Under the pieces are notes generated by a model. The model was not told the DNA's origin, searched no databases, and saw nothing but the letters and a program-made list of their open reading frames with translations. Shown here piece by piece: positions 10,457 through 25,136 of a stretch of 64,000 nucleotides of DNA (within the stretch, counting starts at the first letter, position 1; each line of letters starts with the position of its first letter). The position numbers and the translations under genes were made by a program. The stretch is from an uncultured Legionellales bacterium (lineage in GTDB: Bacteria > Pseudomonadota > Gammaproteobacteria > Eutrophobiales > Eutrophobiaceae): the NCBI GenBank assembly GCA_913045195.1, contig CAJWQR010000002.1, positions 13,209 through 77,208 on the forward strand, given 5' to 3'.

Positions 10457-10494
10457 TTCACTAATCTAAATTTTAGGATAATTATTAACCCACA

Positions 10495-11355: not shown

Positions 11356-11365
11356 GATTGAATAT

Positions 11366-12184
11366 ATGAAATTTTTAATGAATTTTTTATTTATTGTGAG
11401 CTTATTATTAACATACTCAGTTGAAATTATTGCAGAAGAGGGTGTTGAAGAGGCGCCAGAAAAATCGAATGTAATAAAGGGCGCAAATGCATTAACCGAA
11501 GAAGAATTAAGTAAGAGTATTGGTCGTTATGGCGAAGTTGATGAAATTCCGGAAGATTTTGAATTTGCATCTGCTGAGAATAAATTATGGTTAGATAATC
11601 ACCTTGGCAATATTACTCAGCCAACAAGCCTATACTATGAGTTTGTTAAATCAGGTACATATGAAGAAGGTTTTAGTGATTCAGTTTATTTAAAAATTCT
11701 AGAATTAAATGATGATGGCACTAAAAACACACTATTGGATTTTTTTACAGCCGAGAGAAAACAAACGATACCAGAAGGCAATACTACACATATAAGAGGT
11801 AACCCGGTACTGGGTATTTATATGAATGGTGATGTCTATGAGATGGCGCGAATGACAGGCGGAAAAGCAAATCGATATCGGTATTTTTTAAAACAAATAA
11901 AAGTTGCACTAAGAGAAACTGCAAAAGTCGAAGCCACGACTTTCAGCTACAATGGAAAAGAATATAAAGGAGAAAAGGTATTCTTCACTCCTTATGTTGG
12001 AGACCCACACCGACGTGATTTTGAAATATTTGCAGATAAATACTATGAAATTATATTTTCTGATGAAATTCCGGGTAAGCTCTACCAAATTACAACGATT
12101 ATTCCTGATAAAAGTAATGAATCGGCAGAGCCTTTGGTTATGGAGACTTTAAGACTGGTTGATGTAAAAAATCAAGATTCTTAA
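11366..12184 (+). CDS. Hypothetical secreted protein
   Basis: 272 aa with a signal peptide and no recognised domain. Co-oriented with xoxF and xoxJ. Confidence 0.35.
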   Translation: MKFLMNFLFIVSLLLTYSVEIIAEEGVEEAPEKSNVIKGANALTEEELSKSIGRYGEVDEIPEDFEFASAENKLWLDNHLGNITQPTSLYYEFVKSGTYEEGFSDSVYLKILELNDDGTKNTLLDFFTAERKQTIPEGNTTHIRGNPVLGIYMNGDVYEMARMTGGKANRYRYFLKQIKVALRETAKVEATTFSYNGKEYKGEKVFFTPYVGDPHRRDFEIFADKYYEIIFSDEIPGKLYQITTIIPDKSNESAEPLVMETLRLVDVKNQDS

Positions 12185-12192
12185 ATATAAAA

Positions 12193-15021
12193 CTATGACC
12201 CGTATAGATATTTAACATCCGACACTCTATTTCCCTTATTTTTATTATTAATCAAATCGCCTGGGCGTTGACCTTTTCGTAATTTTACAGCGCAGTATTT
12301 AAATTCTGGAATTTTTCCAATAGGGTCTAATGCTTCGTTTGTAAGCAGATTAGCCGCTGCCTCATTAAATGAAAATGGCATCATGACAACACCTTTTTGC
12401 ATGCCTTCATCTGCACGTGTTGTCGCTGCAATTTTTCCTCTTCGAGACTCAATGACAAGCATATCCCCAGATTTTAGTGAAAATAATTTAAGATCTTCAG
12501 GATTAATTAATATACATGGCCCTGGTTCGATAGCATCAAGCACTCGTGAATGACGAGTCATTGTTCCGGTGTGCCAATGTTCAAGCTGTCTTCCTGTGAT
12601 AAATACAAATGGGAAATCATTATTGGGAAGTTCAGCAGGTTCCGTGTAATCTGCAGCAATAAAACTTCCCTTTCCGTCTTGAGTTGGAAATATACCATCT
12701 TTAAAAATAATGGGTTCACCAGGGTCGCCAACATTGGTTAATGGGTAGGTGAGTGAGTCAACCTTTTCTAGTCTTTCCCAGGTAATTCCAGCCATACTTG
12801 GTGTCGCAACCCTTATCTCATTAAATACATCTTTTGTAGCCTTATAATTCCAATTAAGACCCATACGATTAGCAATTTCTTGAATGATCCATAAATCTTG
12901 TTTTGCCTCACCAGGTGGCTCAACAGCTTGCCTTCCTAATTGAACACGTCGATCAGTATTTGTAAACGTGCCATCTTTTTCAGGAAATGCAGAAGCAGGT
13001 AATATTACATCGGCATAACCACATGTTTCCGTAAAGAAGATATCTTGAACAACCATATGATCAAGTTTTGAGAGTGCATTTCTAGCGTGATTCAGATTAG
13101 GATCAGACATTGCTGGATTCTCACCCATGACATAAAGCCCATTAATATCTTTGTTGTAAATCGCGTGCATAATTTCCACAATTGTTTTTCCATTATTTGG
13201 GTCTAGTTTTTGACCCCAAAGTTTTTCAAATTTCTTTCTAATTGTAGAATCAGTAACAGGTTGGTAGTCGGGGTAGACCATAGGAATTAAACCTACATCA
13301 GACGCTCCTTGAACATTATTTTGTCCTCGTAAGGGATGTAGCCCCGTACTTTCACGACCAATTTGTCCGGTCATCAGCGCAAGTGAAATTAAACAGCGTG
13401 CATTATCAGTACCATGAATATGTTGGGATATACCCATACCCCAAAATATAATTGATGACCCTGATGTTGCATAAAGTCGAGCGACTTCCTTAATTACATT
13501 TACATCAATTCCACAAATCGGAGATACTTTTTCAGGTGAATAATTTTTAACTGTTTCAATAATTTTTTCAAAGCCATTGGTATGTTCATCAATGAATTTT
13601 TTATTGTGTAAGTTTTCATTGATAATAACGTGCATCATTGCATTTAGTAAAAGCACATCTGTGCCTGGTCGTAATTGTAAGAAATGACTTGAGTGCAGGG
13701 CAATATCAGAGTTATAGGGCTCAATAATAATAAGCTTGCTACCGCGTTCAGATGCATTTTTTAAAAATGTTGCAGCTACTGGATGATTTTCGTGCGGTCT
13801 TGCACCAATAACAATAATAACGTCAGCGTATGAACCGTCTGAAACTTGATTTGATACAGCCCCCGAGCCAATAGTTTCTAGCAAAGCAGCAACAGATGAA
13901 GCATGGCATAATCTTGTACAGTGATCGACGTTATTTGTTCCAAAACCTGATCTAACTAATTTCTGCACTAAATAAGCTTCTTCATTACTTCCTTTAGCAC
14001 AACCAAAACCCGCAAGAGATTGCGAGCTTTTATTATTTTTAATTTTATTAAAACCTTCAGCTGCAAAATTTAATGCTTCATCCCATGTTACCTCACGAAA
14101 AAACTTATGCATATTTTCACGCGTAACTAATTCGGATGTTTTTTTAGAATTTTCTCGCCTAATCATTGGTTTCTTTAAACGATCAGGGTGATGGATATAA
14201 TCAAATCCATAGCGTCCTTTAACGCATAATCGACTTTTATTCGCAGGACCATCTCTACCATCCACATATTGAATGCGATTATTTTTTATATTAAACGAGA
14301 GCAAGCAGCCAACACCACAATAAGGACAAACAGAATCAACTTTTTTATCAGTTTTGACCAAACCAACATTTTTTGCAGGCATTAGTGCACCTGTTGGACA
14401 GGCTTGGACGCATTCACCGCAGGCCACACAGGTACTTTCGCCCATAGGCGCATCCATATCAAAAACAATCTTTGAATGTTTGCCTCGAAAAGCATAACCA
14501 ATAACATCATTTACTTGTTCTTCACGGCATGCGCGTACGCAACGGGTACATTGAATACAGGCGTCGAGATTTACAGCAATTGCAGGATGTGACACATCAT
14601 TACGGATTTTCTCTCTTTCTTCGAAACGAGGATTGTAAAGGGAAAGTTTTTCTGCCCAGTGATCTAGCTCTGAATTAATTTTATAGGGTGACTTTCCTTG
14701 TTGTGGCATGTCTGAAAGCAGTAACTCTAATACCATTTTTTGAGATAAACGAGCTCTCTTATTTGCGCTATTAACCTTCATGCCTTCAGTTGGTTTTCGA
14801 CAGCATGATGGTGCTAGAACACGTTCACCTTCAATTTCAACAACACAGGCACGACAATTACCATCAGAGCGATATCCGTTCTTATAACAAAGATGAGGGA
14901 TTTCTACATTATTGCGTTTAGCAGCTTGGAGAATTGTTTCATCACCAAAAGAGGTGATTTCTTTATTGTCTAAACTAAAGCTTATTATTGTTTCGTTTTC
15001 TTGTTCTGGGTTGGCGGCCAC
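12193..15021 (-). CDS. fdsA: NAD-dependent formate dehydrogenase alpha subunit (molybdopterin, FdsA)
   Basis: 942 aa. N-terminal 2Fe-2S and 4Fe-4S NuoG-like domains (HLCY...CRACVVE; CIQCTRCVRAC). Then a molybdopterin oxidoreductase domain and a C-terminal MGD-binding domain. GTG start; overlaps fdsB by 37 nt. Confidence 0.9.
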   Translation of the reverse strand: MAANPEQENETIISFSLDNKEITSFGDETILQAAKRNNVEIPHLCYKNGYRSDGNCRACVVEIEGERVLAPSCCRKPTEGMKVNSANKRARLSQKMVLELLLSDMPQQGKSPYKINSELDHWAEKLSLYNPRFEEREKIRNDVSHPAIAVNLDACIQCTRCVRACREEQVNDVIGYAFRGKHSKIVFDMDAPMGESTCVACGECVQACPTGALMPAKNVGLVKTDKKVDSVCPYCGVGCLLSFNIKNNRIQYVDGRDGPANKSRLCVKGRYGFDYIHHPDRLKKPMIRRENSKKTSELVTRENMHKFFREVTWDEALNFAAEGFNKIKNNKSSQSLAGFGCAKGSNEEAYLVQKLVRSGFGTNNVDHCTRLCHASSVAALLETIGSGAVSNQVSDGSYADVIIVIGARPHENHPVAATFLKNASERGSKLIIIEPYNSDIALHSSHFLQLRPGTDVLLLNAMMHVIINENLHNKKFIDEHTNGFEKIIETVKNYSPEKVSPICGIDVNVIKEVARLYATSGSSIIFWGMGISQHIHGTDNARCLISLALMTGQIGRESTGLHPLRGQNNVQGASDVGLIPMVYPDYQPVTDSTIRKKFEKLWGQKLDPNNGKTIVEIMHAIYNKDINGLYVMGENPAMSDPNLNHARNALSKLDHMVVQDIFFTETCGYADVILPASAFPEKDGTFTNTDRRVQLGRQAVEPPGEAKQDLWIIQEIANRMGLNWNYKATKDVFNEIRVATPSMAGITWERLEKVDSLTYPLTNVGDPGEPIIFKDGIFPTQDGKGSFIAADYTEPAELPNNDFPFVFITGRQLEHWHTGTMTRHSRVLDAIEPGPCILINPEDLKLFSLKSGDMLVIESRRGKIAATTRADEGMQKGVVMMPFSFNEAAANLLTNEALDPIGKIPEFKYCAVKLRKGQRPGDLINNKNKGNRVSDVKYLYGS

Positions 15022-16688
15022 TTTTCAAATTCCTCAGGAAAATATCTAATCGCACATCTAACTGGGTTTGGCGCCGCCTGCCCTAAACCACATATTGATG
15101 CATCACACATCGCGATAGAAAGTTCTTCTAATAAGTCTTTATCCCATTCCTCTTTTTCCATCAATTGTATCGCTTTTGATGTCCCAACGCGACAAGGAGT
15201 GCATTGGCCGCATGATTCATGCTCAAAAAAGCGCATTGAATTAAGGGCCAGCCCTTTAACTTTGTCTTTATCAGAAAGCACGATTATAGCTGCTGAACCA
15301 ATAAAACAGCCATGTTTTTGTAATGTATCAAAGTCCAATGGCTCATCTCCAAGCGATGCTGGCAAAATTCCGCCCGATGCTCCGCCGGGGTAATAGCCAT
15401 AAAATTTCTGACCATCAAGCATTCCGTCACAATATTCATCTATTAGCTCTTTTATACTGATGCCCGCAGGAGCCAGATGGACTCCAGGTTTTTTAACACG
15501 CCCGCTAACTGAAAATGAGCGGAGACCTTTTCGTTCACGACGACCATTAGATGAAAACCAATTTGGACCTTTTTCAATAATATCTCTAATCCAATGCAGG
15601 GTTTCCATATTCTGTTCTAGAGTAGGGCGTCCAAAAAGTCCAACTTCAGCAACATAGGGAGGACGTAAACGAGGCATACCAGGTTTTCCTTCGATAGATT
15701 CAATCATCGCAGATTCTTCACCACATATGTAAGCCCCTGCTCCTCTTCTTAAATGTATTGTTGGTAGTTTACATGGAGGCATCGTTTTAATTTTATCTAA
15801 TTCTTTTTCTAACAACATCCTGCAGCCCGCATATTCATCTCTTAGATAAATATAAATATCATCTGCTTCAATCGCCCAGTGAGCGATTAGCGTTCCTTCA
15901 ATAAAACGATGCGGATCATTTTCAAGGTAATAACGGTCTTTAAAGGTGCCGGGCTCGCCTTCATCAATGTTAATAGCAATCAATTTAGGTGATTTTTTTT
16001 CACTTAAAATGCGCCATTTTTGACCCGTTGGAAAACCCGCACCACCTAAACCTCTTAACGAAGAGTCCTCAAGTAATTTTATTATATCTTCACGTTTATA
16101 TTTTCCGTCAATACAGTCGATAAGTGTTTTATAGCCACCATTATTTTTGTAAGCATCATAATCAATATAAGATTTAGGTAGTGAGTCCGATAATTTATTT
16201 TTACTAAGCGCAGAAAGAACAGTTTTTACCTCAGCATGTTCTACGGGGTATGTTCCAGTAAGAGCAACCGGTGCCGCAGCACATCTTCCAACACAGGGAA
16301 CAGGTTGAACGCGAATTGTTTTTGAATCTGTTGCTAATTTTAATTCCTTTATTAATTTCTTAGCACCAAACATTTCACAAGTAACCGATTCACAAACACG
16401 TATAGTAATATCTGGAGGAGGAGCTTCTTTTTCATTTATGACATCGAAGTGATGATAAAAAGTTGCTGTTTCATAAACTGCTGCCATAGATAAATTCATT
16501 ATTTTTGCAAGCGCCATAATATGACGACTTGATATGTGGTGATAAGTGTCTTGGATTTTATGCAGGTGTTCTATAAGCATATCTCTCTTAATAGACTCAC
16601 TATCAATTAGTTTTTCTAATTGAGAAATACAATTTTTGTCTATGACTCGACCGGAGATACGACCTTTTTTTCCACGAGTTCTTTTCAT
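14985..16688 (-). CDS. fdsB: Formate dehydrogenase diaphorase subunit, fused FdsG (NuoE-like) + FdsB (NuoF-like)
   Basis: 567 aa. N-terminal thioredoxin-like 2Fe-2S domain (CESVTCEM...CVGRCAAAP). Then a NuoF-like NAD/FMN/4Fe-4S domain (GLRGLGGAGFPTG; ESCGQCTPCR). Confidence 0.85.
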   Translation of the reverse strand: MKRTRGKKGRISGRVIDKNCISQLEKLIDSESIKRDMLIEHLHKIQDTYHHISSRHIMALAKIMNLSMAAVYETATFYHHFDVINEKEAPPPDITIRVCESVTCEMFGAKKLIKELKLATDSKTIRVQPVPCVGRCAAAPVALTGTYPVEHAEVKTVLSALSKNKLSDSLPKSYIDYDAYKNNGGYKTLIDCIDGKYKREDIIKLLEDSSLRGLGGAGFPTGQKWRILSEKKSPKLIAINIDEGEPGTFKDRYYLENDPHRFIEGTLIAHWAIEADDIYIYLRDEYAGCRMLLEKELDKIKTMPPCKLPTIHLRRGAGAYICGEESAMIESIEGKPGMPRLRPPYVAEVGLFGRPTLEQNMETLHWIRDIIEKGPNWFSSNGRRERKGLRSFSVSGRVKKPGVHLAPAGISIKELIDEYCDGMLDGQKFYGYYPGGASGGILPASLGDEPLDFDTLQKHGCFIGSAAIIVLSDKDKVKGLALNSMRFFEHESCGQCTPCRVGTSKAIQLMEKEEWDKDLLEELSIAMCDASICGLGQAAPNPVRCAIRYFPEEFEKWPPTQNKKTKQ

Positions 16689-16701
16689 AATTAGTGGTTG
16701 A

Positions 16702-18084
16702 TTATTTAATTACTGAGAGCATCTCTTCGATGTAAGTGTATTTTTCACGAGGTTTACCTTTAGGTTCTCCGAGTTCTACTTCTTTGTCGTCAATCTGTGA
16801 CCACTCAGAAAAATTGACATGGCGTACATTTCTATTGTTTAGTTTTGCATATATTTCTTTAGTGCCATACTTTTTTTCTCCAGTATCTAATTTTTCTATA
16901 TCATTTAGTAGATTTGCAACTGTTTCTACGCTACAAGCACGGTTAGTTCCGATAATGCCACTTGGCCCACGCTTTATCCAGCCACCAGTATAGAGTTGAT
17001 TAACTATAGTACCGTCATTTTCAGTGACTCTTCCTTTTTCATTTGGGATTGTGCCCCAGCTTTCATGGAAGGGTACACCTGATATTGGAACGCCATGATA
17101 GCCAATGCTACGAAATAATATACCTGTATTAATTTCAAATATTTCATTAGTTCCTTTAGCTGATTGCTTAAAAGGTTCACCGGATAATTCATTTTTTTCG
17201 AGGATTAATTTTTCTATTTGAGTATTTCCAATTATTTCTTGCGGCCCCATTAGAAATCTAAAAAAGCATTTTTTTGATTTACTGGAATCTAACTCGCGTT
17301 TAGAAAATTCACAAAATTGATCATAGACTTTTCTATTAGTCCTATTAGTTTTTTCTTCTAATTCTTTTTTGCTTTCATCATTTAACTGTAAATCATCTTC
17401 AAGAATAATTGGATTACAATCAGATAATTCTCCGAATTCACGTAATTCTTTAGGTGTAAATTTTGCTTGCGCAGGTCCGCGACGTCCGATTACATGGATT
17501 TCTTTTAATTTGCTTTCTGCTAAAACATCTAATGCATGTTGTGCAATATCAGTATGCTTTAATTCGTCAACAGTTTTCGAAAGTATTCTACTAACATCAG
17601 CTGCAACATTACCTTGTCCTATTATGACAGCAACATCTTGAGAGAGGTTAAATTTTAATTCTCTATAATCAGGATGACCATTATACCAACCAACAAATTC
17701 TGTTGCGGTGTGACTCCCTTTGAGATCTTCGCCAGGTACACCAAGTTTTCTATCTGTTTCAGCGCCATATGCAAGAATGACTGCATGATGTGTTTTACGT
17801 AATTCTTCAATAGAAATATCTCTTCCGACCGCTACGTTTGCGATAAGATTAAAATGGGGGCTGTCTGCAATTTTTTTATAGAGATTGATAGCGGTTTTTA
17901 GTTTTGGATGATCTGGTGCAACACCACTTCGAACAAGGCCATAAGGGGAGGGGAGACGTTCAATAATATCCACATCTACTTCAAATTCTGATTTTATCAG
18001 TGCTTCTGCGGCATAAAACCCGCTCGGACCAGAACCTACTATCGCTACTAATAATGGATTTTCACTAGTTCCAAGTTTAGCCAT
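16702..18084 (-). CDS. FprA-type (adrenodoxin-reductase family) NADPH:ferredoxin oxidoreductase
   Basis: 460 aa with an N-terminal FAD Rossmann motif VAIVGSGPSGFYAA and a second NADP motif IIGQGNVAADV. Overall similar to mycobacterial FprA / glutamate-synthase-beta-like reductases. Confidence 0.75.
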   Translation of the reverse strand: MAKLGTSENPLLVAIVGSGPSGFYAAEALIKSEFEVDVDIIERLPSPYGLVRSGVAPDHPKLKTAINLYKKIADSPHFNLIANVAVGRDISIEELRKTHHAVILAYGAETDRKLGVPGEDLKGSHTATEFVGWYNGHPDYRELKFNLSQDVAVIIGQGNVAADVSRILSKTVDELKHTDIAQHALDVLAESKLKEIHVIGRRGPAQAKFTPKELREFGELSDCNPIILEDDLQLNDESKKELEEKTNRTNRKVYDQFCEFSKRELDSSKSKKCFFRFLMGPQEIIGNTQIEKLILEKNELSGEPFKQSAKGTNEIFEINTGILFRSIGYHGVPISGVPFHESWGTIPNEKGRVTENDGTIVNQLYTGGWIKRGPSGIIGTNRACSVETVANLLNDIEKLDTGEKKYGTKEIYAKLNNRNVRHVNFSEWSQIDDKEVELGEPKGKPREKYTYIEEMLSVIK

Positions 18085-18087
18085 AAC

Positions 18088-18335
18088 TTAGAAATCCACC
18101 CATAGAAAAGCGATTTCATTAATACTAAAACTTAAAGTTATTATTTTACTTTTTTGTTGTGAATTGGCGGCCATTTATAAATTTCCAAAAAAATTTTAGA
18201 TTGTACATTATCGGTTTGGCGCCGCCTGTCCTAAACCGAAAATTAATGTTTCAAATTATTATGATTGATGGTTCTTTTATACGGTATTCCTTTATTTTTT
18301 CATTAATTGTATCGCTTTTGATGTTTGAACGCGAC
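18088..18335 (-). pseudogene. Decayed remnant of an fdsB 3' end plus fdsA 5' end (duplicate of the 14985-15200 junction)
   Basis: Nucleotide blocks TTGGCGGCCA, GGTTTGGCGCCGCCTGyCCTAAACC and AATTGTATCGCTTTTGATGT..AACGCGAC are shared with 15001-15200. The minus-strand translation gives RVQTSKAIQLMKK* / GLGQAAPNR* (compare FdsB RVGTSKAIQLMEKE / GLGQAAPNPVR) and MAANSQQKSKIITLSFSINEI...* (compare FdsA MAANPEQENETIISFSLDNKEI). Several in-frame stops. Confidence 0.6.
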
Positions 18336-18336
18336 T

Positions 18337-18642
18337 TTATAAACCTAGTTCTGCTTTACGTTCCTCGGCCCCAGGCAAAGGGTCCATTTGTTCTTCAATG
18401 ACCGGAAGTTCTGCTGCCTTTTGAGCATTGATTTCTATCCAGTGTTCTTGATCCTCAGGGATATCATCACCCTCATAAATCGCCTCAACGGGGCATTCTG
18501 GAACACATGCACTACAGTCAATACAAACTTCTGGGTCAATGTATAACATCTCGTCATCATAGTGAAAGCAAGCAACCGGACACACAGATACACAATCAGT
18601 GAATCGACAGCCTTTACAATTATCAGTTACGATTGTTGTCAT
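18337..18642 (-). CDS. fdxA: 7Fe ferredoxin ([3Fe-4S][4Fe-4S], FdxA/FdI type)
   Basis: 101 aa. The motifs TDNCKGCRFTDCVSVCPVACF and CIDCSACVPECP match Azotobacter FdI-type ferredoxins. Confidence 0.8.
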   Translation of the reverse strand: MTTIVTDNCKGCRFTDCVSVCPVACFHYDDEMLYIDPEVCIDCSACVPECPVEAIYEGDDIPEDQEHWIEINAQKAAELPVIEEQMDPLPGAEERKAELGL

Positions 18643-18692
18643 CGTTTCCTCCTCTACCTCATTGGGTAGTTCCTCTAGGTGATAGTACTATT

Positions 18693-19511
18693 TTATTTGC
18701 TTTTATTTGTTGATAAAAGGATTTCTCCACGATTTAATTCAACTGAATCACCGCTCCAACGCTCAAAGGAATTATTCAAATATGACGAATCAATTGAAAA
18801 ACCATTTTTTTCTAGATAACTAACATAAAATTTAATAAATGAAGGCTGGTATTCACAATTACGAGAAAATGTGGGAAGTAATTTGGCTTTATTAAAACTA
18901 ATAATAGAACCACGCTTCATTCCAGCCCCCGTCCGTATACCCATCCTACCTAAAACAATGATTGTCCCAGCCAACATGTTAACTCCTGTGAAATCACCGG
19001 AATCTCCTCCAACAGCAATCAAACCTCGACGCATAACATGACCGGTTTCATTTTTCACATTACCATGAACAATGATTTCGCCTCCTTGCATACCAATGGC
19101 GCTTCCACGGTATCCACTACCAGTCATATGACCTGCATTTCCTTTAACTACAATTTTTCCACCTTGCATTTCTGCAGCTAACCAATCAGAAGCATTACCC
19201 TCAATTATAATTTCACCACCCCGCATTCCAGCTCCAGTATGCAAACCAATATTACCTTCCACTGTAATTTTACCAAATGACATTGAAGCACCCACATGTT
19301 TAATATTTGATAAATCACCATCAATATTTATCTCGCCATCGAAGCTTCCATTACATTCAAAAAATTCACCGAGTTCTACTTGTCGATTTCCATGAAAAAC
19401 AGTCATAGCAGTGATTTCATTATTTTTCAAAGATTGTACTATGTCAGGACAAATACAGTCAGCTTCTAATGGTACTTCGGGTTGGGTATGTAATTTAAGA
19501 TGAAGTGGCAT
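18693..19511 (-). CDS. fhcC: Formyltransferase/hydrolase complex subunit C (FwdC homologue)
   Basis: 272 aa of repeated GxxG / G-rich beta-helix repeats (GNIGLHTGAGMRGGEIIIEGNASDW...), typical of FwdC/FhcC and the glutamate-synthase C-terminal domain. Confidence 0.85.
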   Translation of the reverse strand: MPLHLKLHTQPEVPLEADCICPDIVQSLKNNEITAMTVFHGNRQVELGEFFECNGSFDGEINIDGDLSNIKHVGASMSFGKITVEGNIGLHTGAGMRGGEIIIEGNASDWLAAEMQGGKIVVKGNAGHMTGSGYRGSAIGMQGGEIIVHGNVKNETGHVMRRGLIAVGGDSGDFTGVNMLAGTIIVLGRMGIRTGAGMKRGSIISFNKAKLLPTFSRNCEYQPSFIKFYVSYLEKNGFSIDSSYLNNSFERWSGDSVELNRGEILLSTNKSK

Positions 19512-20413
19512 TAGTTTTGACTCTTTTTCATTAATTCGTGTAAGTGAATTTGATACTGACCCAATCCACCACCGTAATTTCCTGCAGTAATTTTTTTAAC
19601 ACCAGGTTTTATGGCAGCTTTAATACCAGCATGCATTGCTTCTTCAACAGCTTGTAATGTTAATCCGTCAATGACTATCTCAAGAACACTATTTATATCA
19701 GCATCAATTTCTGTTTTTTCAACTATACTGGTTAGCGTCGGGCAATAAGCATCATTAGTTGACGCAATCAATGCCTTATATTTGGAGCCAACTTTACTTC
19801 CACTCCTGACGACGCCATTAGGAAAGGGTAATATTATATTTGGTATCTCCCTCATTGCTTTGACAGCTGACTTTGCTGCTTTTAATGCGGTATTTTGATC
19901 TGTTGCCAGAATTAGTATATTACCTCCACCGACTGCTTCTTTTGATTTGAAAATGTCATCAACCAGAAATTCACCGTCCATAACTGGTATACGCCACAAT
20001 CTTTTGTCAGCTATTTTCTTACTGATTTGATAACCATCACCAAAATACCGTAGCTGACCACCAACCACGATTTCACTACCCTCATCTATTCCGCTGTAGC
20101 ATGCCGTACTTGGACAAGTCATAACGCATTGACCAATTCGTTCCACCAAACGCTTTCCTAAATTGTCACTATCCATAGCAAAGAATAAAACGCTGACACC
20201 AGGCCTTAGATCTGGTGAATCTTCTGATGGAATTTCTGTTTCAATACCAGCTTCACATTTACAACCTATTACGGAAGTTGCAAAACCAGTAACAGATTGC
20301 GCAGCCGCCATTGCCCACTCTTTTGTTTCAGCAGTTATAATGATTCGACTTCCGTGCATTTTGAATGCTTCAGCAAATGTGTCGACAATCTCGGTTGATT
20401 TTATCTTCATCAT
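19511..20413 (-). CDS. fhcD: Formylmethanofuran:tetrahydromethanopterin formyltransferase (Ftr/FhcD)
   Basis: 300 aa. Near-colinear match to Ftr (VDTFAEAF, TSVIGC, KYFGDG, VAGGN, PFPGG..SGSK, CPT, GVKKITAGNYGG.LG.Y). Confidence 0.9.
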   Translation of the reverse strand: MMKIKSTEIVDTFAEAFKMHGSRIIITAETKEWAMAAAQSVTGFATSVIGCKCEAGIETEIPSEDSPDLRPGVSVLFFAMDSDNLGKRLVERIGQCVMTCPSTACYSGIDEGSEIVVGGQLRYFGDGYQISKKIADKRLWRIPVMDGEFLVDDIFKSKEAVGGGNILILATDQNTALKAAKSAVKAMREIPNIILPFPNGVVRSGSKVGSKYKALIASTNDAYCPTLTSIVEKTEIDADINSVLEIVIDGLTLQAVEEAMHAGIKAAIKPGVKKITAGNYGGGLGQYQIHLHELMKKSQN

Positions 20414-20418
20414 TAAAT

Positions 20419-22062
20419 TTAACCTGTTTTAATAATTTCGTGATGATCATGTAAATAACGATCATCAACGGCATAATTGGAGAATTCAATCGAATAATAA
20501 CTTTCAAAGAAAGGTTTGAGGGTCTCTTCAATTTTATTATCATATTCTGGTGTTATGTGATAAACCTTACCTTTAGAATCAGTTTTAAATTCATGATTTT
20601 CAATCATTGTATTTCCAGATTTAATGACATAACGAGGTGTGCTGAACATCATTTCCTTGTCATCCATTACATCGTAGATTGTGATATCGGCATCAGCACC
20701 CACACCTAGGTGACCTTTTGTTTCTAGTCCTAAAGCTTTGGCAGGACCCGCTCTTGTAATAATTGCAATTTCATTTAATGTATATTCTCGTTTTAATTCG
20801 GGTAGTGAACACTTCAATAGGGCTTTTTGATTTACTCGCTTCATTTCTTCATGACGAAATTTTTCATCCATTAGGAGTTTAATAAGTTTAGGGTAGGCCA
20901 TAAAAGAACCACCATTCGGATGATCTGTTGATAAAATTATTCTCCAAGGATCTTCCGACAGTAAAAATAATTCCAATCCAATTGCCCATTGAAGCGTGTG
21001 CATATAAATATGTTCCTGATAGGCGAAAGGTAAAATTCCACAACCACTTTCACATTCTGTATCAGCGTTGACCCATTTACCTTTAGAGTGACCCCTTAGA
21101 AGATAGGCTAAGGGAGCATCGGCAGTCATAATTGTTGAGTTACCGAACATTACTTGCCCAACATCACAGGTGATATTTGGATGATTATTTACATACTCAG
21201 CAATTTCAGCAGCCTTTGAGATCGGATTTTTACCAAGCTCTCCCCCATAACTATGAAATTGAATATGGGCAATATGTGCACGTAGGTCGCCTGCTGTTTT
21301 CATAGTCTCAAGTGTTGTCTTATAATTGCCGCTGTGCCCAAGGTTATTACAATGGATGTGGGGCGGATGAGGGTAACCCTGTTTGTTTACGGTTTTTACA
21401 AAAGCTTCAATTATTTGTCGCGGTGATAAATCACCTGCTTCACCAGTTTTTTCATCAATATCAGATACATTGGAATTTCTTTCTCCTTTCCATGGTTCAT
21501 CACCGCCTGGGTTAACTAGTTTAACGGTATATGCTTTGGTAGCGCATACCCACCAAGCAACCGCTTGTTCGAATTCTTCCATGCGCTTCTCACGTATTAA
21601 ATTATGAAGAAAGATATTGTTCCCTAAAAGAACATAAAAGCCCTTATCAATAATTGGTGTGTCCTCGAATTCTTCTAATACATGGCGTGCACCAATTGGC
21701 GAGACAGCTGCTTCCATTGCCGTGGTGTATCCCAATGTTGCATAACGGTAACCCGCAGCAAATGTTGAAGGCGTTGTTCCACCGGAACCCGAACGGGTAA
21801 AAGGAGTTGATGGATGAACATCATGACGACGAGCTTCGGGCATTAATTTTCTAGCGAGATTGACCTTAGGTCCTGCAATATGGCAGTGAATATCAACACC
21901 ACCAGGCATAATAGCCATGCCTTTAGCATCAATAATTGTTGCTTCGTCTGATACAGAATCAACAATCTTTCCGTTTTCTATGCAAATTTCTTTTATTTCA
22001 CCGTTAATATTGTTTTTTGGATCGTATACTTCGCCATTAACGATGCGCATTGACGCAGACAT
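20419..22062 (-). CDS. fhcA: Formyltransferase/hydrolase complex subunit A (FwdA-like amidohydrolase)
   Basis: 547 aa metal-dependent amidohydrolase fold (GGVDIHCHIAGPKVN; HxH and downstream His/Asp ligands), the FwdA/FhcA family. Confidence 0.85.
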   Translation of the reverse strand: MSASMRIVNGEVYDPKNNINGEIKEICIENGKIVDSVSDEATIIDAKGMAIMPGGVDIHCHIAGPKVNLARKLMPEARRHDVHPSTPFTRSGSGGTTPSTFAAGYRYATLGYTTAMEAAVSPIGARHVLEEFEDTPIIDKGFYVLLGNNIFLHNLIREKRMEEFEQAVAWWVCATKAYTVKLVNPGGDEPWKGERNSNVSDIDEKTGEAGDLSPRQIIEAFVKTVNKQGYPHPPHIHCNNLGHSGNYKTTLETMKTAGDLRAHIAHIQFHSYGGELGKNPISKAAEIAEYVNNHPNITCDVGQVMFGNSTIMTADAPLAYLLRGHSKGKWVNADTECESGCGILPFAYQEHIYMHTLQWAIGLELFLLSEDPWRIILSTDHPNGGSFMAYPKLIKLLMDEKFRHEEMKRVNQKALLKCSLPELKREYTLNEIAIITRAGPAKALGLETKGHLGVGADADITIYDVMDDKEMMFSTPRYVIKSGNTMIENHEFKTDSKGKVYHITPEYDNKIEETLKPFFESYYSIEFSNYAVDDRYLHDHHEIIKTG

Positions 22063-22139
22063 CTAATACCCCTCTAGTGATTACTTGCTTATATAAACTA
22101 ATTATTTTCTTAATGCAGTTTAACGCTGGTACATAAGAC

Positions 22140-23540
22140 TTAGAGCGGGTTTACTGCTGCTACTTTTGCTTCGCCAGAAGCACCTCCTGGATGAATTTTC
22201 TTTAAAGTTAATTCGTGCACACGTTTTTTTATTTTTTTAAGTATTGTTTCATCATCAGGGAAAGGTGATTCGAACGCAGGCCTCAATGTAATTGAGACAT
22301 CATCCATACGGTACACCGTTCCACCAGTATTAATACCATAGGTCGCAGTTTTAAATGCGACGTGTGACAATTTTGAAGTTACGGTACTTTTGGTGTCAAG
22401 AGTAATTACAGGAATATTTTTTAAGTGATCGATTGCTTTTTTAGGAAAATTTGATCCTGGATCGCTTGCAATAATTAATGCTGCATCAGCATCACCATTG
22501 GACAGTGTATCAACTGTTGTAAATTCGCCCGGATTAAAACGTGGATAGCCGCGACTAAAATTTACACCAAAAGGATACCCTGTTTGCCAGGCGACCACAT
22601 TATCAGCGCCCGTAACATTCCCATGCCCACGAACTGGTTTTGCTACAAAATGCGTATACTTATTTAGATCAGTAGCAAGTGCGAGCAGGGCGCCTGAGTT
22701 GAAGTGACGTCCTCGGGTCATTGTTAGTCCCATTCCAAAAAACAATACGCCAAAACGACAATTTTTCATACGTTCTGCTAAGTCAGTTAATGTTTCGAGT
22801 GAAACACCAGTTTCTTCTTCTATATTGACACCCCAAAACCATTCTCCTTCATTAGCTGACAATTTATTTCCTTTAACCAAGGCGCGAAGTGCCCAGAGTA
22901 TTTCAAAGTCTTTTCCAGGCTTTGGACGTATTAAAATATCCGCAACACCTGCACTTTTTGTTTTTCTAACATCAACCAATACAACAGTTCGATCTTTTTT
23001 TCCGTTTGGTGTGAACATACCTTTTGGGGTAACTGCATAACGCCCAAAATGCCGAGGATGTGATTCGGCTGGATTACCTCCCCAGTAGATAACTAGATCT
23101 GCACGATTTTTCACTTCTCCTAATGTGCTTGTACTTTCACCGACACCTTGAAAAGCAAGGCCGCTTGGCCCATGACAGACCGAGGTAGTGGTATCAATAT
23201 TACCTTTAATATAGTCCGTGATTGCAACTGCTTCTCGTTGCGCTTCAGAAGTAGTGTCGCTCAGACCATAGGTTATTGGAAATTTCGCTTTTACTAAAGT
23301 TTGCGCAGCTTCTTCAATCGCTTCTTCTATTGTGACTTCTTTACCGTCAATCATTGCAGCAGGCGCATCTTCAATTGTGTGTTCAGCAAACCAAGCACGA
23401 CCTAGAACACAAGCATTTTTAGCTTTTGTGATTCTTTTTTCATCTAGATCAACGTGAAGTTCCATGTCATCACAAACACAACCACAAAATGTACAAGTTG
23501 CATCCTTAACAATCTTAATATTTTCGTTTTCATTTGCCAT
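22140..23540 (-). CDS. fhcB: Formyltransferase/hydrolase complex subunit B (FwdB homologue, molybdopterin-oxidoreductase fold)
   Basis: 466 aa with an N-terminal Cys cluster CTFCGCVCDD, then a molybdopterin oxidoreductase-like fold lacking the MGD C-terminal domain. Confidence 0.85.
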   Translation of the reverse strand: MANENENIKIVKDATCTFCGCVCDDMELHVDLDEKRITKAKNACVLGRAWFAEHTIEDAPAAMIDGKEVTIEEAIEEAAQTLVKAKFPITYGLSDTTSEAQREAVAITDYIKGNIDTTTSVCHGPSGLAFQGVGESTSTLGEVKNRADLVIYWGGNPAESHPRHFGRYAVTPKGMFTPNGKKDRTVVLVDVRKTKSAGVADILIRPKPGKDFEILWALRALVKGNKLSANEGEWFWGVNIEEETGVSLETLTDLAERMKNCRFGVLFFGMGLTMTRGRHFNSGALLALATDLNKYTHFVAKPVRGHGNVTGADNVVAWQTGYPFGVNFSRGYPRFNPGEFTTVDTLSNGDADAALIIASDPGSNFPKKAIDHLKNIPVITLDTKSTVTSKLSHVAFKTATYGINTGGTVYRMDDVSITLRPAFESPFPDDETILKKIKKRVHELTLKKIHPGGASGEAKVAAVNPL

Positions 23541-23573
23541 TAAGCGATCTACCTTTAATAATCCTATCTTTTA

Positions 23574-23918
23574 TTATTTAACTTTTTCAATTTCAACCAT
23601 CATATGTTTTGATAATGGCATACCAGTTCCAGCTGTATCACTTGCCATTAACTGACTTGAGGGCGGCCCATAAGGAATAAACAACAACCCCGCGGATAAA
23701 TCTTCGGGTTTTTTACCAACGCAACTTACTATTGTTTCGCCAATTTCATTCCACATTCGCACTTTATCACCATCAACTAGATCCCTTTTAGCCATATCAT
23801 CTTTATTCATCTCTAATGTTGAGGTGATCTTTTGATACTCATCTTTGAGTTTACCTTGATTCAGAGATGTTCCTTGTTTGCTTGAACGTCCCGGTATAAG
23901 CATCATTTTATCTACCAC
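23574..23918 (-). CDS. FwdD-like small molybdopterin-dinucleotide-binding-domain protein
   Basis: 114 aa. LIPGRS.KQG...GK...Y....LEMNKDDMAKRDLVDGDKV......GE....C......L..GLLFIPYGP......A.DT.GTGMP..K matches the FwdD / MopB C-terminal barrel pattern. It lies immediately upstream of fhcB on the same strand. Confidence 0.6.
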   Translation of the reverse strand: MVDKMMLIPGRSSKQGTSLNQGKLKDEYQKITSTLEMNKDDMAKRDLVDGDKVRMWNEIGETIVSCVGKKPEDLSAGLLFIPYGPPSSQLMASDTAGTGMPLSKHMMVEIEKVK

Positions 23919-24027
23919 AAAGAGCTCTCCTTAATGTCTGTTATTATAACTTCGGTATCTCAATGCCACAACATTCTGTATAATAAGGATTTTTTCTGCT
24001 GAGACTGAGAGTCTCTAATTATATCTT

Positions 24028-25062: not shown

Positions 25063-25136
25063 CAACCAAAGAACAATATAATAATGGACTTAATGAGCGT
25101 ATTGAATACCTCATAATTGCTAGTTCTGGCAGGGCA

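What the first reader, a model, noticed from the sequence alone, without database searches (positions are those of the whole stretch)
12193..23918. Co-directional C1-oxidation supercluster with an embedded ferredoxin / FNR pair between fhc and fds
Nine genes on one strand run from formyl-MFR hydrolysis to CO2: fwdD-like, fhcB, fhcA, fhcD, fhcC, a 7Fe ferredoxin, an adrenodoxin-reductase-type NADPH:ferredoxin reductase, fused fdsGB and fdsA. Intergenic gaps are at most about 50 bp, apart from the remnant-containing spacer. In characterised methylotrophs Fhc is a redox-neutral hydrolase and Fds reduces NAD+ directly, so neither needs ferredoxin. A dedicated Fd/FNR pair wedged between them is unexpected. 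It suggests either a ferredoxin-linked electron route for this Fds/Fhc (for example Fd-dependent formate oxidation or CO2 reduction) or simple hitch-hiking from the rearrangement marked by the remnant.
Basis: partly seen in the sequence, partly recalled or inferred. Interest (0 to 1): 0.6.

Follow-up and report, generated by a model that had tools for sequence, protein, structure and literature searches.

The report
Live bacterial formylmethanofuran dehydrogenase with ferredoxin outlet
The ferredoxin and ferredoxin reductase genes are not strays: they form a conserved seven-gene unit with a version of the bacterial "Fhc" one-carbon enzyme that keeps the redox active site of the archaeal formylmethanofuran dehydrogenase, so this marine methanol oxidiser probably burns formyl groups straight to CO2 and passes the electrons through ferredoxin to NADP+.

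Summary
The nine co-directional genes are there as described. Two labels need correcting. The "FhcB" is a full FwdB/FmdB-type catalytic subunit: it keeps the N-terminal 4-Cys motif, the Cys-His dyad and the arginine, and an FwdD gene lies upstream. M. extorquens FhcB has lost all of these. The "Fds" is the M. extorquens tungsten Fdh1AB type.

fwdD-fwdB-fhcA-ftr-fhcC-fdx-fprA is a conserved unit. In uncultured Gammaproteobacteria, 29 of 29 genome loci that extend far enough carry fdx and 27 of 27 carry fprA. In Gemmatimonadales MAGs the same seven genes are linked in another order (fdx-fprA-fwdD-fwdB-fhcA-fhcC-ftr). Most relatives have a second, catalytically dead fhcBADC set between fprA and the formate dehydrogenase. 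The window's clade deleted it, so adjacency to fds is secondary.

The spacer "remnant" is real. It is a clade-specific copy of the fdsGB-3'/fdsA-5' junction and is far younger than the fdx-fprA linkage.

Best reading (about 0.55): an aerobic bacterial formyl-methanofuran dehydrogenase/formyltransferase complex whose electrons leave through a 7Fe ferredoxin and an FprA-type reductase to NADP+. This is a new variant of a known kind. Hitch-hiking and a ferredoxin-dependent Fds are not supported.

The parts
23574..23918 (-). fwdD: the domain-IV (molybdopterin dinucleotide-binding) subunit that caps the pterin site of FwdB
   Evidence: PF01568. Full-length match to archaeal FwdD chains 9sfi_S, 2ki8_A and 5t5i_D, E 1e-13 to 6e-11. 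Conserved upstream of fwdB in all related loci.
22140..23540 (-). fwdB: FwdB/FmdB-type catalytic subunit. It keeps C16/C19/C23/C44 ([4Fe-4S] motif), C122-H123 (SVCHGPS) and R304 (VRGHGN).
   Evidence: TIGR03129, 504 bits. Full-length alignment to 9sfi_Q, 8rja_B and 5t5i_B, E 9e-113 to 6e-103, against E 7e-12 over residues 251-410 for M. extorquens FhcB 6s6y_B. Residue mapping. dN/dS 0.04.
20419..22062 (-). fwdA/fhcA: amidohydrolase subunit (formyl-methanofuran hydrolysis or condensation)
   Evidence: TIGR03121, 688 bits. Closer to archaeal FwdA/FmdA (407-483 bits) than to M. extorquens FhcA (330 bits). The HxH motif is aligned.
19511..20413 (-). ftr/fhcD: formylmethanofuran:H4MPT formyltransferase. 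It lies inside the operon, as in bacterial fhcBADC.
   Evidence: PF01913 + PF02741; NF002554, 441 bits.
18693..19511 (-). fwdC/fhcC: beta-helix (GXGXG) scaffold subunit
   Evidence: TIGR03122, 259 bits.
18337..18642 (-). fdxA: Azotobacter FdI-type 7Fe ([3Fe-4S][4Fe-4S]) ferredoxin. All nine FdI cysteines are present. A GGAGG ribosome-binding site lies upstream.
   Evidence: NF045490, 118 bits (below the cut-off of 135), plus DUF3470. A. vinelandii FdI structures, E about 1e-29. It is among the most conserved genes of the unit (mean 81.5% identity over 25 loci). dN/dS about 0.03. Sequence read.
18085..18336 (-). fdx-fprA spacer. It holds a non-coding copy of the fdsGB-3'/fdsA-5' junction. This includes the exact 20-mer TTTAGGACAGGCGGCGCCAA and a 28-codon ORF (MAANSQQKSKIITLSFSINEIAFLWVDF) whose stop lies 4 nt before the fprA ATG.
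   Evidence: blastn: 71% identity over 224 nt, E 8e-21. Alignment A5. The 20-mer is found twice in the window against 0.02 expected. No Rfam match. Present only in the window's clade.
16702..18084 (-). fprA: adrenodoxin-reductase / M. tuberculosis FprA-type NADPH:ferredoxin oxidoreductase
   Evidence: 1lqt_A E 1.2e-99; bovine AdR 1cjc_A E 2.5e-94; both full length. Sources name the homologues 'ferredoxin--NADP+ reductase'. dN/dS 0.07.
14985..16688 (-). fdh1B (fused NuoE-NuoF, 'fdsGB'): the NAD/FMN/Fe-S subunit of the formate dehydrogenase
   Evidence: PF01257 + PF01512 + PF10589. 7e5z_B, the tungsten FDH beta subunit, E 1e-207.
12193..15021 (-). fdh1A ('fdsA'): Mo/W-bisPGD formate dehydrogenase alpha subunit. 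It has a GTG start that overlaps fdh1B by 37 nt.
   Evidence: TIGR01591, 771 bits. 7e5z_A/7vw6_A, 1183 bits. The same overlap is seen in L001, L003 and L024.
14974..15193 (-). The coding fdsGB-3'/fdsA-5' junction that is the source of the repeated element
23919..24027 (.). 110-bp divergent intergenic region between fwdD and the H4MPT/methanofuran biosynthesis genes (mptG, ATP-grasp, mch, mptN, citG-like, fae at 24028-29683 on the + strand)
   Evidence: The same divergent layout is seen in all gammaproteobacterial relatives.

Best explanation
fwdD-fwdB-fhcA-ftr-fhcC-fdxA-fprA is one functional module. It encodes a bacterial, redox-competent formylmethanofuran dehydrogenase fused in operon logic with the formyltransferase, that is, an 'Fhc' complex whose B/D part is still alive.

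Proposed path:
1. Ftr moves the formyl group from H4MPT to methanofuran.
2. FwdA hydrolyses formyl-methanofuran.
3. The formate is oxidised to CO2 at the Mo/W-pterin site of FwdBD.
4. The two electrons leave through the FwdB [4Fe-4S] cluster to the 7Fe ferredoxin.
5. FprA passes them to NADP+, giving NADPH.

The NAD-linked Fdh1AB next door is a separate formate sink. It became adjacent only because the window's lineage deleted a second, catalytically dead fhcBADC set that lies between fprA and fds in its relatives.

Shown here:
- gene identities
- retention of the catalytic and cluster residues, plus FwdD
- conservation of the seven-gene unit in two phyla and in two gene orders
- purifying selection
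- the deletion history

Inferred, not shown:
- cofactor binding
- physical Fd docking
- direction of electron flow
- NADP+ as the final acceptor
For: (1) FwdB aligns over its full length with archaeal FwdB/FmdB (E 9e-113 to 1.5e-98). It keeps the four N-terminal Cys, plus the equivalents of Cys118-His119 and Arg288 of 5t5i_B (my residue count). Hemmann et al. 2019 list exactly these features, together with the N-terminal cluster domain and FwdD, as lost in the scaffold-only M. extorquens FhcB.

(2) A full-length FwdD gene lies directly upstream.

(3) FhcA is also closer to archaeal FwdA than to M. extorquens FhcA.

(4) The co-resident second-set FhcB2 of relatives lacks the Cys (a 4-residue gap) and has LGGN in place of RGH. 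It is only 25-30% identical to FwdB. The two sets are therefore functionally distinct.

(5) Linkage: 29 of 29 genome loci that reach past fhcC carry fdx, and 27 of 27 carry fprA. The fhcC-fdx gap is 18-61 bp in 28 of 29 loci. The fdx-fprA gap is 4-98 bp in 23 of 29 loci.

(6) All ten metagenome contigs with FprA at 59% identity or more have fdx upstream, and have the Fwd set where the contig is long enough.

(7) Independent arrangement: Gemmatimonadales MAGs (GC 0.70) carry fdx-fprA-fwdD-fwdB(SVCHGPS, VRGHGN)-fhcA-fhcC-ftr-mch (L123, L124). One carries fprA-fwdD-fwdB (L122).

(8) What follows fprA varies: Fhc2 with or without Fds, Fds directly, or unrelated genes. The unit therefore ends at fprA.

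(9) fdx and fwdB are the most conserved genes of the unit. All nine genes have dN/dS of 0.03-0.08 against L003 and L024.

(10) The window's lineage has lost Fhc2 but keeps the Fwd-type set intact. That set must therefore carry the flux.

(11) Established knowledge, not tested here:
- M. tuberculosis FprA exchanges electrons with a 7Fe ferredoxin.
- E0' of CO2/formyl-methanofuran is about -530 mV (quoted in PMC11656701).
- The FdI [3Fe-4S] cluster is at about -420 mV and NADP+ at -320 mV, so the oxidative direction is downhill.

(12) Archaeal fwd clusters place a ferredoxin-like gene next to fwdB (L038/L039). An oxidative archaeal FMD is wired to a higher-potential acceptor, F420 (8rja).
Against: - There are no expression, metal or activity data.
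- No FwdF/FwdG-type subunit is present, so the route out of FwdB's cluster is conjecture.
- FprA is characterised as an NADPH-to-Fd reductase. The reverse direction is inferred from potentials only.
- Archaeal FMDs are oxygen-sensitive, yet the host looks aerobic: PQQ dehydrogenase, cupredoxin, class I ribonucleotide reductase and O2-dependent TrhO.
- One high-GC contig (L057) has fprA directly upstream of a Cys-less FhcB with no FwdD in view. L122 has no fdx called beside fprA.
- A bacterial fwdD plus Cys-FwdB cluster exists without fdx/fprA (L040).
- fdx-fprA pairs occur with no C1 genes in view among FprA homologues at 50-57% identity.
- mtdB is missing from the window, so the upstream pathway is not visibly complete here.
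- If FwdBD oxidises all the formate internally, the need for Fdh1AB is unexplained.
Confidence: 0.55

Rival explanations
1. The Fd/FprA pair belongs to the H4MPT/methanofuran C1 regulon but serves something other than FwdBD. Candidates are a ferredoxin-dependent step of cofactor biosynthesis (for example an archaeal-type dihydromethanopterin reduction), or Fe-S or radical-SAM enzymes. It would be co-located only for co-regulation.
For: - L057 and L068 place fprA beside ATP-grasp/mptN-type biosynthesis genes. In L057 it lies beside a Cys-less FhcB with no FwdD visible.
- fdx-fprA pairs exist outside C1 contexts at 50-57% identity, so this is a general-purpose redox module.
- A bacterial FwdD/FwdB(Cys) cluster lacks it (L040).
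Against: - In both the gammaproteobacterial and the Gemmatimonadales layouts the pair abuts the Fwd structural genes, not the biosynthesis genes, which are divergently transcribed.
- No ferredoxin-dependent biosynthetic enzyme was recognised in the window's C1 island.
- The pair has not been reported beside canonical fhc clusters that lack FwdD, such as M. capsulatus with subunits A, B and C only.
Confidence: 0.2
2. FwdBD keeps its cofactors but the complex still works as a hydrolase feeding Fdh1AB. Fd/FprA run in the NADPH-to-Fd direction, to reductively activate or protect the oxygen-exposed Mo/W or Fe-S site, or to drive CO2 reduction to formyl-methanofuran.
For: - FprA's characterised direction is NADPH to Fd (established knowledge).
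- An NAD-FDH is retained next door.
- The host is aerobic.
Against: - NADPH (-320 mV) cannot drive CO2 to formyl-methanofuran (-530 mV) without bifurcation, and no bifurcating module is present.
- A mere maintenance role would not explain why FwdB and Fdx are the most conserved genes of the unit.
- It would also not explain why the lineage discarded the dedicated hydrolase set.
Confidence: 0.1
3. One reading: the ferredoxin/FNR pair provides a ferredoxin-linked route for the Fds formate dehydrogenase.
For: - Adjacency in the window: the fprA-fdsGB gap is 13 bp.
- A copy of the fds junction lies in front of fprA.
Against: - The adjacency is derived. Relatives have fhcBADC2 between fprA and fds (L036, L045) or no fds at all after fprA (L009, L027, L028, L051).
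- The FDH is a close homologue of NAD-dependent FoDH1 and has its own NuoE/F module.
Confidence: 0.05
4. Hitch-hiking: fdx-fprA were dropped here by the rearrangement that left the remnant and have no functional tie to the C1 genes.
For: - A remnant of the fdsGB/fdsA junction lies in the fdx-fprA spacer.
- The Fhc2 and mtdB deletions show that the locus was remodelled.
Against: - The linkage predates the remnant by far. It holds in 29/29 and 27/27 loci, down to 54% FprA identity, and in a second phylum.
- The remnant is limited to the window's clade.
- Purifying selection acts on both genes.
Confidence: 0.03

Closest known systems
Archaeal tungsten/molybdenum formylmethanofuran dehydrogenase (FwdABCDFG of Methanothermobacter wolfeii, PDB 5T5I; also 9SFI, 9SW6, 7BKB)
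   Same: FwdB has the N-terminal [4Fe-4S] cysteines, Cys-His and Arg. FwdD is a separate domain-IV subunit. The FwdA amidohydrolase and FwdC are present. B, A and D all give full-length matches.
   Different: - There are no FwdF, FwdG or FwdE polyferredoxin subunits. A soluble-type 7Fe FdxA and an FprA flavoprotein take their place.
- An ftr gene lies inside the operon, as in bacterial fhcBADC.
- The host is an aerobic bacterium and the expected direction is oxidative.
- The metal ligand is Cys, not Sec.
Formyltransferase/hydrolase complex FhcABCD of Methylorubrum extorquens (PDB 6S6Y; Hemmann et al. 2019, PMC6926001)
   Same: The gene order is B-A-D(ftr)-C. It sits in a bacterial H4MPT/methanofuran formaldehyde-oxidation island. 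The same four protein families are present.
   Different: M. extorquens FhcB lacks the cluster domain, Cys118 (Ser62), His119, Arg288 and any FwdD, and is a scaffold. Here all of these are retained. The window's B subunit matches 6s6y_B only at E 7e-12 over 160 residues. The canonical dead type is present as a second set in relatives, and there the Cys is lost but the N-terminal Cys motif is kept.
F420-reducing formylmethanofuran dehydrogenase of 'Ca. Ethanoperedens thermophilum' (PDB 8RJA; PMC11493965)
   Same: It is an FMD used in the oxidative direction and wired to an acceptor of higher potential than ferredoxin. This gives a thermodynamic pull. It is the best or near-best structural relative of the window's FwdA and FwdB.
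   Different: Its acceptor module is an F420 reductase bound to the complex. Here the module would be a ferredoxin plus an NADP(H) flavoprotein encoded as separate genes. It comes from an anaerobic archaeon.
M. tuberculosis FprA / mitochondrial adrenodoxin reductase with 7Fe or 2Fe ferredoxins
   Same: Full-length homology (1lqt E 1e-99, 1cjc E 2.5e-94). It is paired with an FdI-type 7Fe ferredoxin.
   Different: The known physiological direction is NADPH to Fd to P450s and similar acceptors. Here the pair is embedded in a C1 oxidation operon and is proposed to run from Fd to NADP+.
Tungsten-containing NAD-dependent formate dehydrogenase Fdh1AB/FoDH1 of M. extorquens (PDB 7E5Z, 7VW6)
   Same: A two-subunit architecture with a fused NuoE-NuoF beta subunit. 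Matches score 1183 and 694 bits.
   Different: Nothing notable apart from the 37-nt overlap of the two genes and the duplication of their junction elsewhere in the cluster.

Membership tests
Fwd/Fmd formylmethanofuran dehydrogenase | B subunit with an N-terminal CxxCxxxC...C [4Fe-4S] motif | tested here: met
   C16, C19, C23 and C44 align with the corresponding cysteines of 5t5i_B (Cys9/12/16/35 by my own count from the printed alignment).
Fwd/Fmd formylmethanofuran dehydrogenase | Catalytic Cys/Sec-His dyad and the conserved Arg (Cys118, His119, Arg288 in M. wolfeii FwdB) | tested here: met
   SVC122H123GPS and VR304GHGN align with 5t5i_B, 8rja_B and 9sfi_Q. The list of residues comes from PMC6926001.
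Fwd/Fmd formylmethanofuran dehydrogenase | A separate FwdD (domain IV) subunit that caps the pterin | tested here: met
   A 114-aa ORF lies upstream. It carries PF01568 and matches archaeal FwdD over its full length. It scores below the NCBIfam FwdD exception cut-off (73 against 175 bits).
Fwd/Fmd formylmethanofuran dehydrogenase | FwdA amidohydrolase and FwdC subunits | tested here: met
   TIGR03121 at 688 bits and TIGR03122 at 259 bits. Alignment to 8rja_A includes the HxH motif.
Fwd/Fmd formylmethanofuran dehydrogenase | Dedicated Fe-S electron-transfer subunits (FwdG, FwdF polyferredoxin) | tested here: not met
   No such ORF lies in the cluster. The only Fe-S protein is an FdI-type 7Fe ferredoxin.
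Fwd/Fmd formylmethanofuran dehydrogenase | Bound Mo/W-bis-pyranopterin and formyl-methanofuran:acceptor oxidoreductase activity | not testable with these tools
   This needs protein chemistry.
Bacterial Fhc formyltransferase/hydrolase complex (M. extorquens type) | fhcB-A-D-C operon that includes the formyltransferase, within an H4MPT island | tested here: met
   The gene order and the neighbours are shown.
Bacterial Fhc formyltransferase/hydrolase complex (M. extorquens type) | Redox-dead B subunit (no catalytic Cys, His or Arg; no FwdD) | tested here: not met
   All of these are retained here. The dead form is the second set found in relatives.
Bacterial Fhc formyltransferase/hydrolase complex (M. 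extorquens type) | Free formate as the product | not testable with these tools
   This needs an enzyme assay.
FprA / adrenodoxin reductase family | Full-length, roughly 460-aa two-domain FAD/NADP flavoprotein homologous to 1LQT and 1CJC, with an N-terminal GxGxxG motif | tested here: met
   E 1.2e-99 and 2.5e-94 over residues 7-458. The motifs GSGPSG and GQGNVA are present.
FprA / adrenodoxin reductase family | NADP(H):ferredoxin oxidoreductase activity with the neighbouring ferredoxin | not testable with these tools
   This needs an assay.
Azotobacter FdI-type 7Fe ferredoxin (FdxA) | Cys pattern C8, C11, C16, C20-P ... C24 ... C39, C42, C45, C49-P, plus the C-terminal DUF3470 extension | tested here: met
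   All nine Cys are present and DUF3470 is matched. The NCBIfam equivalog scores 118 bits, below its cut-off of 135.
Fdh1AB / FoDH1-type NAD-dependent Mo/W formate dehydrogenase | Alpha subunit with 2Fe-2S, 4Fe-4S and molybdopterin domains and a Cys-His active site, plus a fused NuoE-NuoF beta subunit | tested here: met
   Pfam domains. TIGR01591 above its cut-off. 7e5z_A/B score 1183 and 694 bits. The motif 'RLCHAS' is present in the sequence.

The most novel reading that the evidence does not exclude
Aerobic bacteria of at least two phyla possess an oxygen-compatible, catalytically live formylmethanofuran dehydrogenase that is docked to a formyltransferase as in Fhc. The two phyla are the marine and groundwater UBA4486-like Gammaproteobacteria and the Gemmatimonadales. 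This enzyme would be the 'missing link' between archaeal Fwd and bacterial Fhc. It would use a new electron module (7Fe ferredoxin plus FprA) to turn formyl-group oxidation directly into NADPH without a free formate intermediate.
Probability: 0.45. Interest if true: 0.8.

Novelty: new variant of a known kind. Interest (0 to 1): 0.68.

Why it matters
The textbook view is that bacteria inherited the archaeal Fwd machinery only as a redox-dead hydrolase.
[quoted passage not shown] - Lemaire and Wagner 2024 list only a polyferredoxin, an Hdr supercomplex and an F420 reductase as electron modules for FMD.

A live Fwd-type complex with an NADP-linked ferredoxin outlet, in abundant and transcriptionally active marine methanol oxidisers, would have four consequences.
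The UBA4486 group is reported to have highly expressed xoxF.
- It would supply the evolutionary intermediate that Hemmann et al. postulated.
- It would give a candidate oxygen-tolerant FMD for CO2-capture biocatalysis.
- It would make testable why some genomes keep both a live and a dead complex side by side.

Tried and rejected
- An Rfam scan of 11000-25000 at E<=1 gave only two chance-level eukaryotic hits. No riboswitch was found in the spacer.
- The promoter and terminator consensus scans were no better than shuffles and gave no clear operon boundary.
- I looked for a second Fhc set and for mtdB in the window by tblastn. Both are absent.
- The representative search and cluster look-ups gave almost no taxonomy for the nearest non-clade FwdB relatives. 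My first MAFFT run timed out. The fast alignment was too noisy for column-wise residue calls, so I used motif searches instead, and my first regex was too strict.
- RNAalifold on the five spacers gave only weak support: -14.4 kcal/mol with a covariation term of -1.4. The conserved GGCGGC/GCCGCC blocks are invariant and so uninformative about structure.
- TMED127/'Methylaequorales' turned out to be alphaproteobacterial and is not this organism.
- Six literature searches found no description of a proteobacterial Fwd-type complex with Fd/FprA.
- I considered structure prediction of FwdB. I judged it uninformative beyond the sequence evidence, because cofactors and complexes cannot be modelled with the tools given.
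- I rejected a reductive (CO2-fixing) role on thermodynamic grounds.

Full report
**Observation.**
The window (GC about 35%) carries nine uninterrupted minus-strand ORFs between 12193 and 23918. Pfam and NCBIfam identify them as:
- an FwdD-like molybdopterin-dinucleotide-binding protein
- formylmethanofuran dehydrogenase subunit B (TIGR03129, 504 bits)
- subunit A (TIGR03121, 688 bits)
- the formyltransferase (NF002554, 441 bits)
- subunit C (TIGR03122, 259 bits)
- an FdxA-type ferredoxin
- a pyridine-nucleotide flavoprotein
- a fused NuoE-NuoF protein
- a formate dehydrogenase alpha subunit (TIGR01591, 771 bits)

Gaps between successive genes are 33, 77, 5, -1, 50, 252, 13 and -37 bp.

The cluster sits in a C1 island.
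- Upstream of the FDH, on the other strand, lie a PQQ methanol/ethanol-family dehydrogenase, a cupredoxin and a MoxJ-like protein.
- Divergently from fwdD lie mptG, an ATP-grasp gene, mch, mptN, a citG-like gene and fae. Methanofuran-type biosynthesis genes follow.
- Exact-sequence look-ups place the window in Tara Oceans and other marine metagenomes, in an uncultured gammaproteobacterium.

**The B subunit is alive.**
Against the PDB, the 466-aa 'FhcB' aligns end to end with archaeal FwdB/FmdB chains (9sfi_Q E 9e-113, 8rja_B 6e-106, 5t5i_B 6e-103). M. extorquens FhcB (6s6y_B) matches only residues 251-410, at E 7e-12.

Counting along the printed alignment gives these correspondences with 5t5i_B:
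- C16/C19/C23/C44 correspond to its N-terminal cluster cysteines.
- SVC122-H123 corresponds to Cys118-His119.
- R304 (VRGHGN) corresponds to Arg288.

Hemmann et al. 2019 name exactly these residues, the N-terminal [4Fe-4S] domain and the FwdD 'fourth domain' as what M. extorquens FhcB has lost. That loss makes it a scaffold and the complex a hydrolase.

Here the 114-aa upstream ORF is a full-length FwdD homologue (E 1e-13 to 6e-11 against archaeal FwdD structures). The A subunit is likewise closer to archaeal FwdA/FmdA (407-483 bits) than to M. extorquens FhcA (330 bits).

The premise that 'Fhc is redox-neutral, so it needs no ferredoxin' therefore does not apply to this complex.

**The partners.**
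- The ferredoxin has all nine cysteines of Azotobacter FdI and its C-terminal extension (E about 1e-29).
- The flavoprotein is a full-length homologue of M. tuberculosis FprA (E 1e-99) and of bovine adrenodoxin reductase (E 2.5e-94).
- The FDH is the two-subunit tungsten FoDH1/Fdh1AB type of M. extorquens (alpha 1183 bits, beta 694 bits). It has its own NAD/FMN module.

**Comparative genomics: gammaproteobacterial relatives.**
A scan of one genome per GTDB species with FwdB returned 35 loci. Nearly all are uncultured Gammaproteobacteria MAGs, variously labelled Legionellales, Thiotrichaceae (including UBA4486 itself) or Gammaproteobacteria. Mapping the window's proteins onto them shows fwdD-fwdB-fhcA-ftr-fhcC-fdx-fprA in the same order wherever the contig allows.
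- 29 of 29 loci that extend past fhcC carry fdx, and 27 of 27 that extend further carry fprA.
- The fhcC-fdx gap is 18-61 bp in 28 of 29 loci.
- The fdx-fprA gap is 4-98 bp in 23 of 29 loci.
- fdx (mean 81.5% identity) and fwdB (about 80%) are the most conserved genes of the unit.
- All nine genes show dN/dS of 0.03-0.08 against two sister genomes. Synonymous sites are near saturation, so these ratios are approximate.

**What follows fprA varies.**
- In about 20 loci a second, paralogous fhcB-A-D-C set follows. Its proteins are 25-30%, 43-46%, about 51% and about 35% identical to the first set.
- In three loci unrelated genes follow.
- Only in the window's own clade (window, L001, L003, L024, L042) does fdsGB-fdsA follow directly.
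- Long contigs show the fuller order Fwd set - fdx - fprA - Fhc2 - fdsGB - fdsA (L036; L045).

The window has no second set. Its fprA-fds adjacency is therefore the product of a deletion.

The second-set FhcB2 keeps the N-terminal Cys motif. It has a four-residue gap where SVC should be and LGGN in place of RGH. It is the dead, canonical type.

**A second phylum, a second order.**
A metagenome scan with an FprA alignment gave three classes of result.
- FprA at 59% identity or more is always preceded by fdx, and by the Fwd set where that can be seen.
- At 50-57% identity the contexts split. Some are fdx-fprA pairs with no C1 genes in view. Some have fprA beside H4MPT genes. Some are GC-rich contigs with fprA immediately upstream of fwdD and a live fwdB (L055, L060).
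- Below 50% identity, fprA is almost always without an adjacent fdx (two exceptions: L074, L094).

Searching with the L060 FwdB identified that GC-rich lineage as Gemmatimonadales/Gemmatimonadota. Its contigs read as follows:
- L123 and L124: fdx-fprA-fwdD-fwdB-fhcA-fhcC-ftr-mch
- L122: fhcB2-A2-ftr-fprA-fwdD-fwdB-fhcA-fhcC

In both L122 and L123, FwdB has SVCHGPS and VRGHGN. Identity to the window's seven proteins (L123) is 54-67%.

The same seven genes, linked in a different order in a different phylum, is the strongest argument here that ferredoxin and FprA work with FwdDB. Conversely, one bacterial fwdD plus Cys-fwdB cluster lacks them (L040). An archaeal fused FwdDB is followed by an FwdG-like 2x[4Fe-4S] protein instead (L038/L039).

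**The remnant.**
The 252-bp fdx-fprA spacer of the window is 71% identical over 224 nt (E 8e-21) to the coding junction of fdsGB and fdsA at 15193..14974.
- Sister genomes L001, L003 and L033 have a third copy between mptG and fwdD, in the fwdD orientation. L029 has a 24-nt core of it there.
- The alignment (A5) shows blocks that are invariant in coding and non-coding copies alike: GTCGC...AAAGCGATACAAT, GGTTTAGG.CAGGCGGCGCCAA and (A/G)TGGCCGC.
- The exact 20-mer occurs twice in the window (0.02 expected) and three times in L001 and L003.
- In the window spacer the copy opens a 28-codon ORF derived from the FdsA N-terminus. Its stop lies 4 nt before the fprA ATG. The copies upstream of fwdD end in a TGA that overlaps the fwdD GTG.
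- Other relatives have short spacers and no copy.

The remnant is therefore real, young and clade-specific. It cannot explain the much older fdx-fprA linkage.

Invariant 20-nt blocks survive in non-coding copies between genomes whose synonymous sites are saturated. That hints the copies were co-opted as leaders or cis-elements. I have no covariation or Rfam support for this.

**Mechanism proposed.**
1. Fae, Mch and Ftr deliver a formyl group to methanofuran.
2. FwdA hydrolyses it.
3. FwdBD oxidises the formate to CO2.
4. Electrons pass from FwdB's [4Fe-4S] cluster to FdxA, then to FprA's FAD, then to NADP+.

Only the parts list and the conservation are shown. The wiring and the direction are inferred. 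They rest on potentials of about -530 mV for CO2/formyl-methanofuran (quoted), about -420 mV for the FdI [3Fe-4S] cluster and -320 mV for NADP+ (the last two from established knowledge). They also rest on the known FprA-7Fe ferredoxin pairing in mycobacteria (established knowledge).

The nearest functional analogue is the 'Ca. Ethanoperedens' FMD, which in the oxidative direction is wired to F420 rather than to ferredoxin.

Caveats:
- There is no FwdG or FwdF.
- The host is aerobic.
- L057 and L122 are partial exceptions.
- Unlinked fdx-fprA pairs exist among more distant FprA homologues.
- mtdB is absent from the window.
- The retained NAD-FDH is unexplained if no formate escapes.

**Literature.**
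Chistoserdova 2016 states that the fwdD homologue is absent from Proteobacteria and Planctomycetes. Wells et al. 2020 note the absence of bacterial FwdB representatives. Wells et al. 2023 count 149 bacterial 'FwdB' hits without functional analysis and ascribe them to transfer from Archaea. The 2024 FMD review lists a polyferredoxin, an Hdr supercomplex and an F420 reductase as electron modules, and names only the dead Fhc as a bacterial relative.

The UBA4486 group ('Riflewellaceae') is reported to express xoxF strongly in the ocean. I found no description of its Fwd-type complex or of the Fd/FprA pair. That library is incomplete, so prior description elsewhere cannot be excluded.

**Verdict.**
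A ferredoxin-linked route is supported, but for the Fwd-type complex and not for Fds. Hitch-hiking is rejected.
- This is a new variant of a known kind.
- Confidence in the proposed mechanism is about 0.55.
- Interest is 0.68.

Noticed in passing
window 18085-18336 and 14974-15193 (minus strand); L001 4978-5213, 10827-11037, 13985-14192; L003 9288-9491, 15154-15358, 18287-18494; L033 5011-5194: A roughly 215-nt segment equal to the fdsGB-3'/fdsA-5' junction is repeated in front of fprA and, in sister genomes, in front of fwdD. It has invariant 13-21-nt blocks. Each non-coding copy carries a short ORF that ends at or 4 nt before the downstream start codon. It may be a co-opted translational-coupling leader or cis-regulatory element. 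There is no Rfam match and no covariation evidence.
   Followed up: partly
window 24028-26219 (mptG to the ATP-grasp gene), compared with L006 7471-8373, L010 7482-8381, L036 2175-3080: mtdB (methylene-H4MPT dehydrogenase) lies between the ATP-grasp gene and mptG in 21 relatives. It is missing there, and from the whole 64-kb window, in exactly the clade that also lost the second Fhc set. How methylene-H4MPT is oxidised in this lineage is not visible here.
   Followed up: partly
L010 16851-18128, L016 16833-18113, L018 16623-17891, L122 4348-5616: The Cys-less second-set FhcB proteins of relatives still keep the N-terminal CxxCxxxC...C motif, unlike M. extorquens FhcB, which lost that domain. 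Most of the top-150 representatives in the library show the same pattern.
   Followed up: partly
window 6212-12184: The PQQ methanol/ethanol-family dehydrogenase (7876-9813) is followed by a pseudoazurin/plastocyanin-like cupredoxin (9983-10456) rather than a cytochrome c. A MoxJ-like binding protein comes next (10495-11355). Then comes a 272-aa ORF (11366-12184) with no Pfam or NCBIfam hit. A 'quinoprotein dehydrogenase-associated SoxYZ-like carrier' (6212-7072, minus strand) lies upstream.
   Followed up: no
L051 2966-3289: One metagenome contig (GC 0.43, 80 kb) carries a second FdI-like ferredoxin (107 aa, 49% identical to the window's) immediately upstream of fwdD, in addition to the fdx-fprA pair after fhcC. 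Nothing C1-related follows fprA there.
   Followed up: no
window 22140-23540 (FwdB residues about 240-250): The window's FwdB has an insertion of about 9-11 residues (SANEGEWFWGV) relative to its gammaproteobacterial relatives and to archaeal FwdB.
   Followed up: no
L038/L039 10001-12104: Among the nearest non-clade relatives of FwdB are 570-606-aa FwdD-FwdB fusions, with D at the N-terminus, the same order as the separate genes here. The one examined is archaeal and is followed by an FwdG-like ferredoxin.
   Followed up: partly
L011 (labelled Planctomycetota MAG): A contig binned as Planctomycetota carries the gammaproteobacterial-type cluster at 79% FwdB identity. This is probably a binning error rather than a planctomycete occurrence.
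   Followed up: no
window 29759-34448: The C1 island continues with a HisA/F-like gene, MfnD-like, MfnF-like (TIGR03123) and MfnE-like genes, with pabB in the midst of the methanofuran/H4MPT biosynthesis genes.
   Followed up: no
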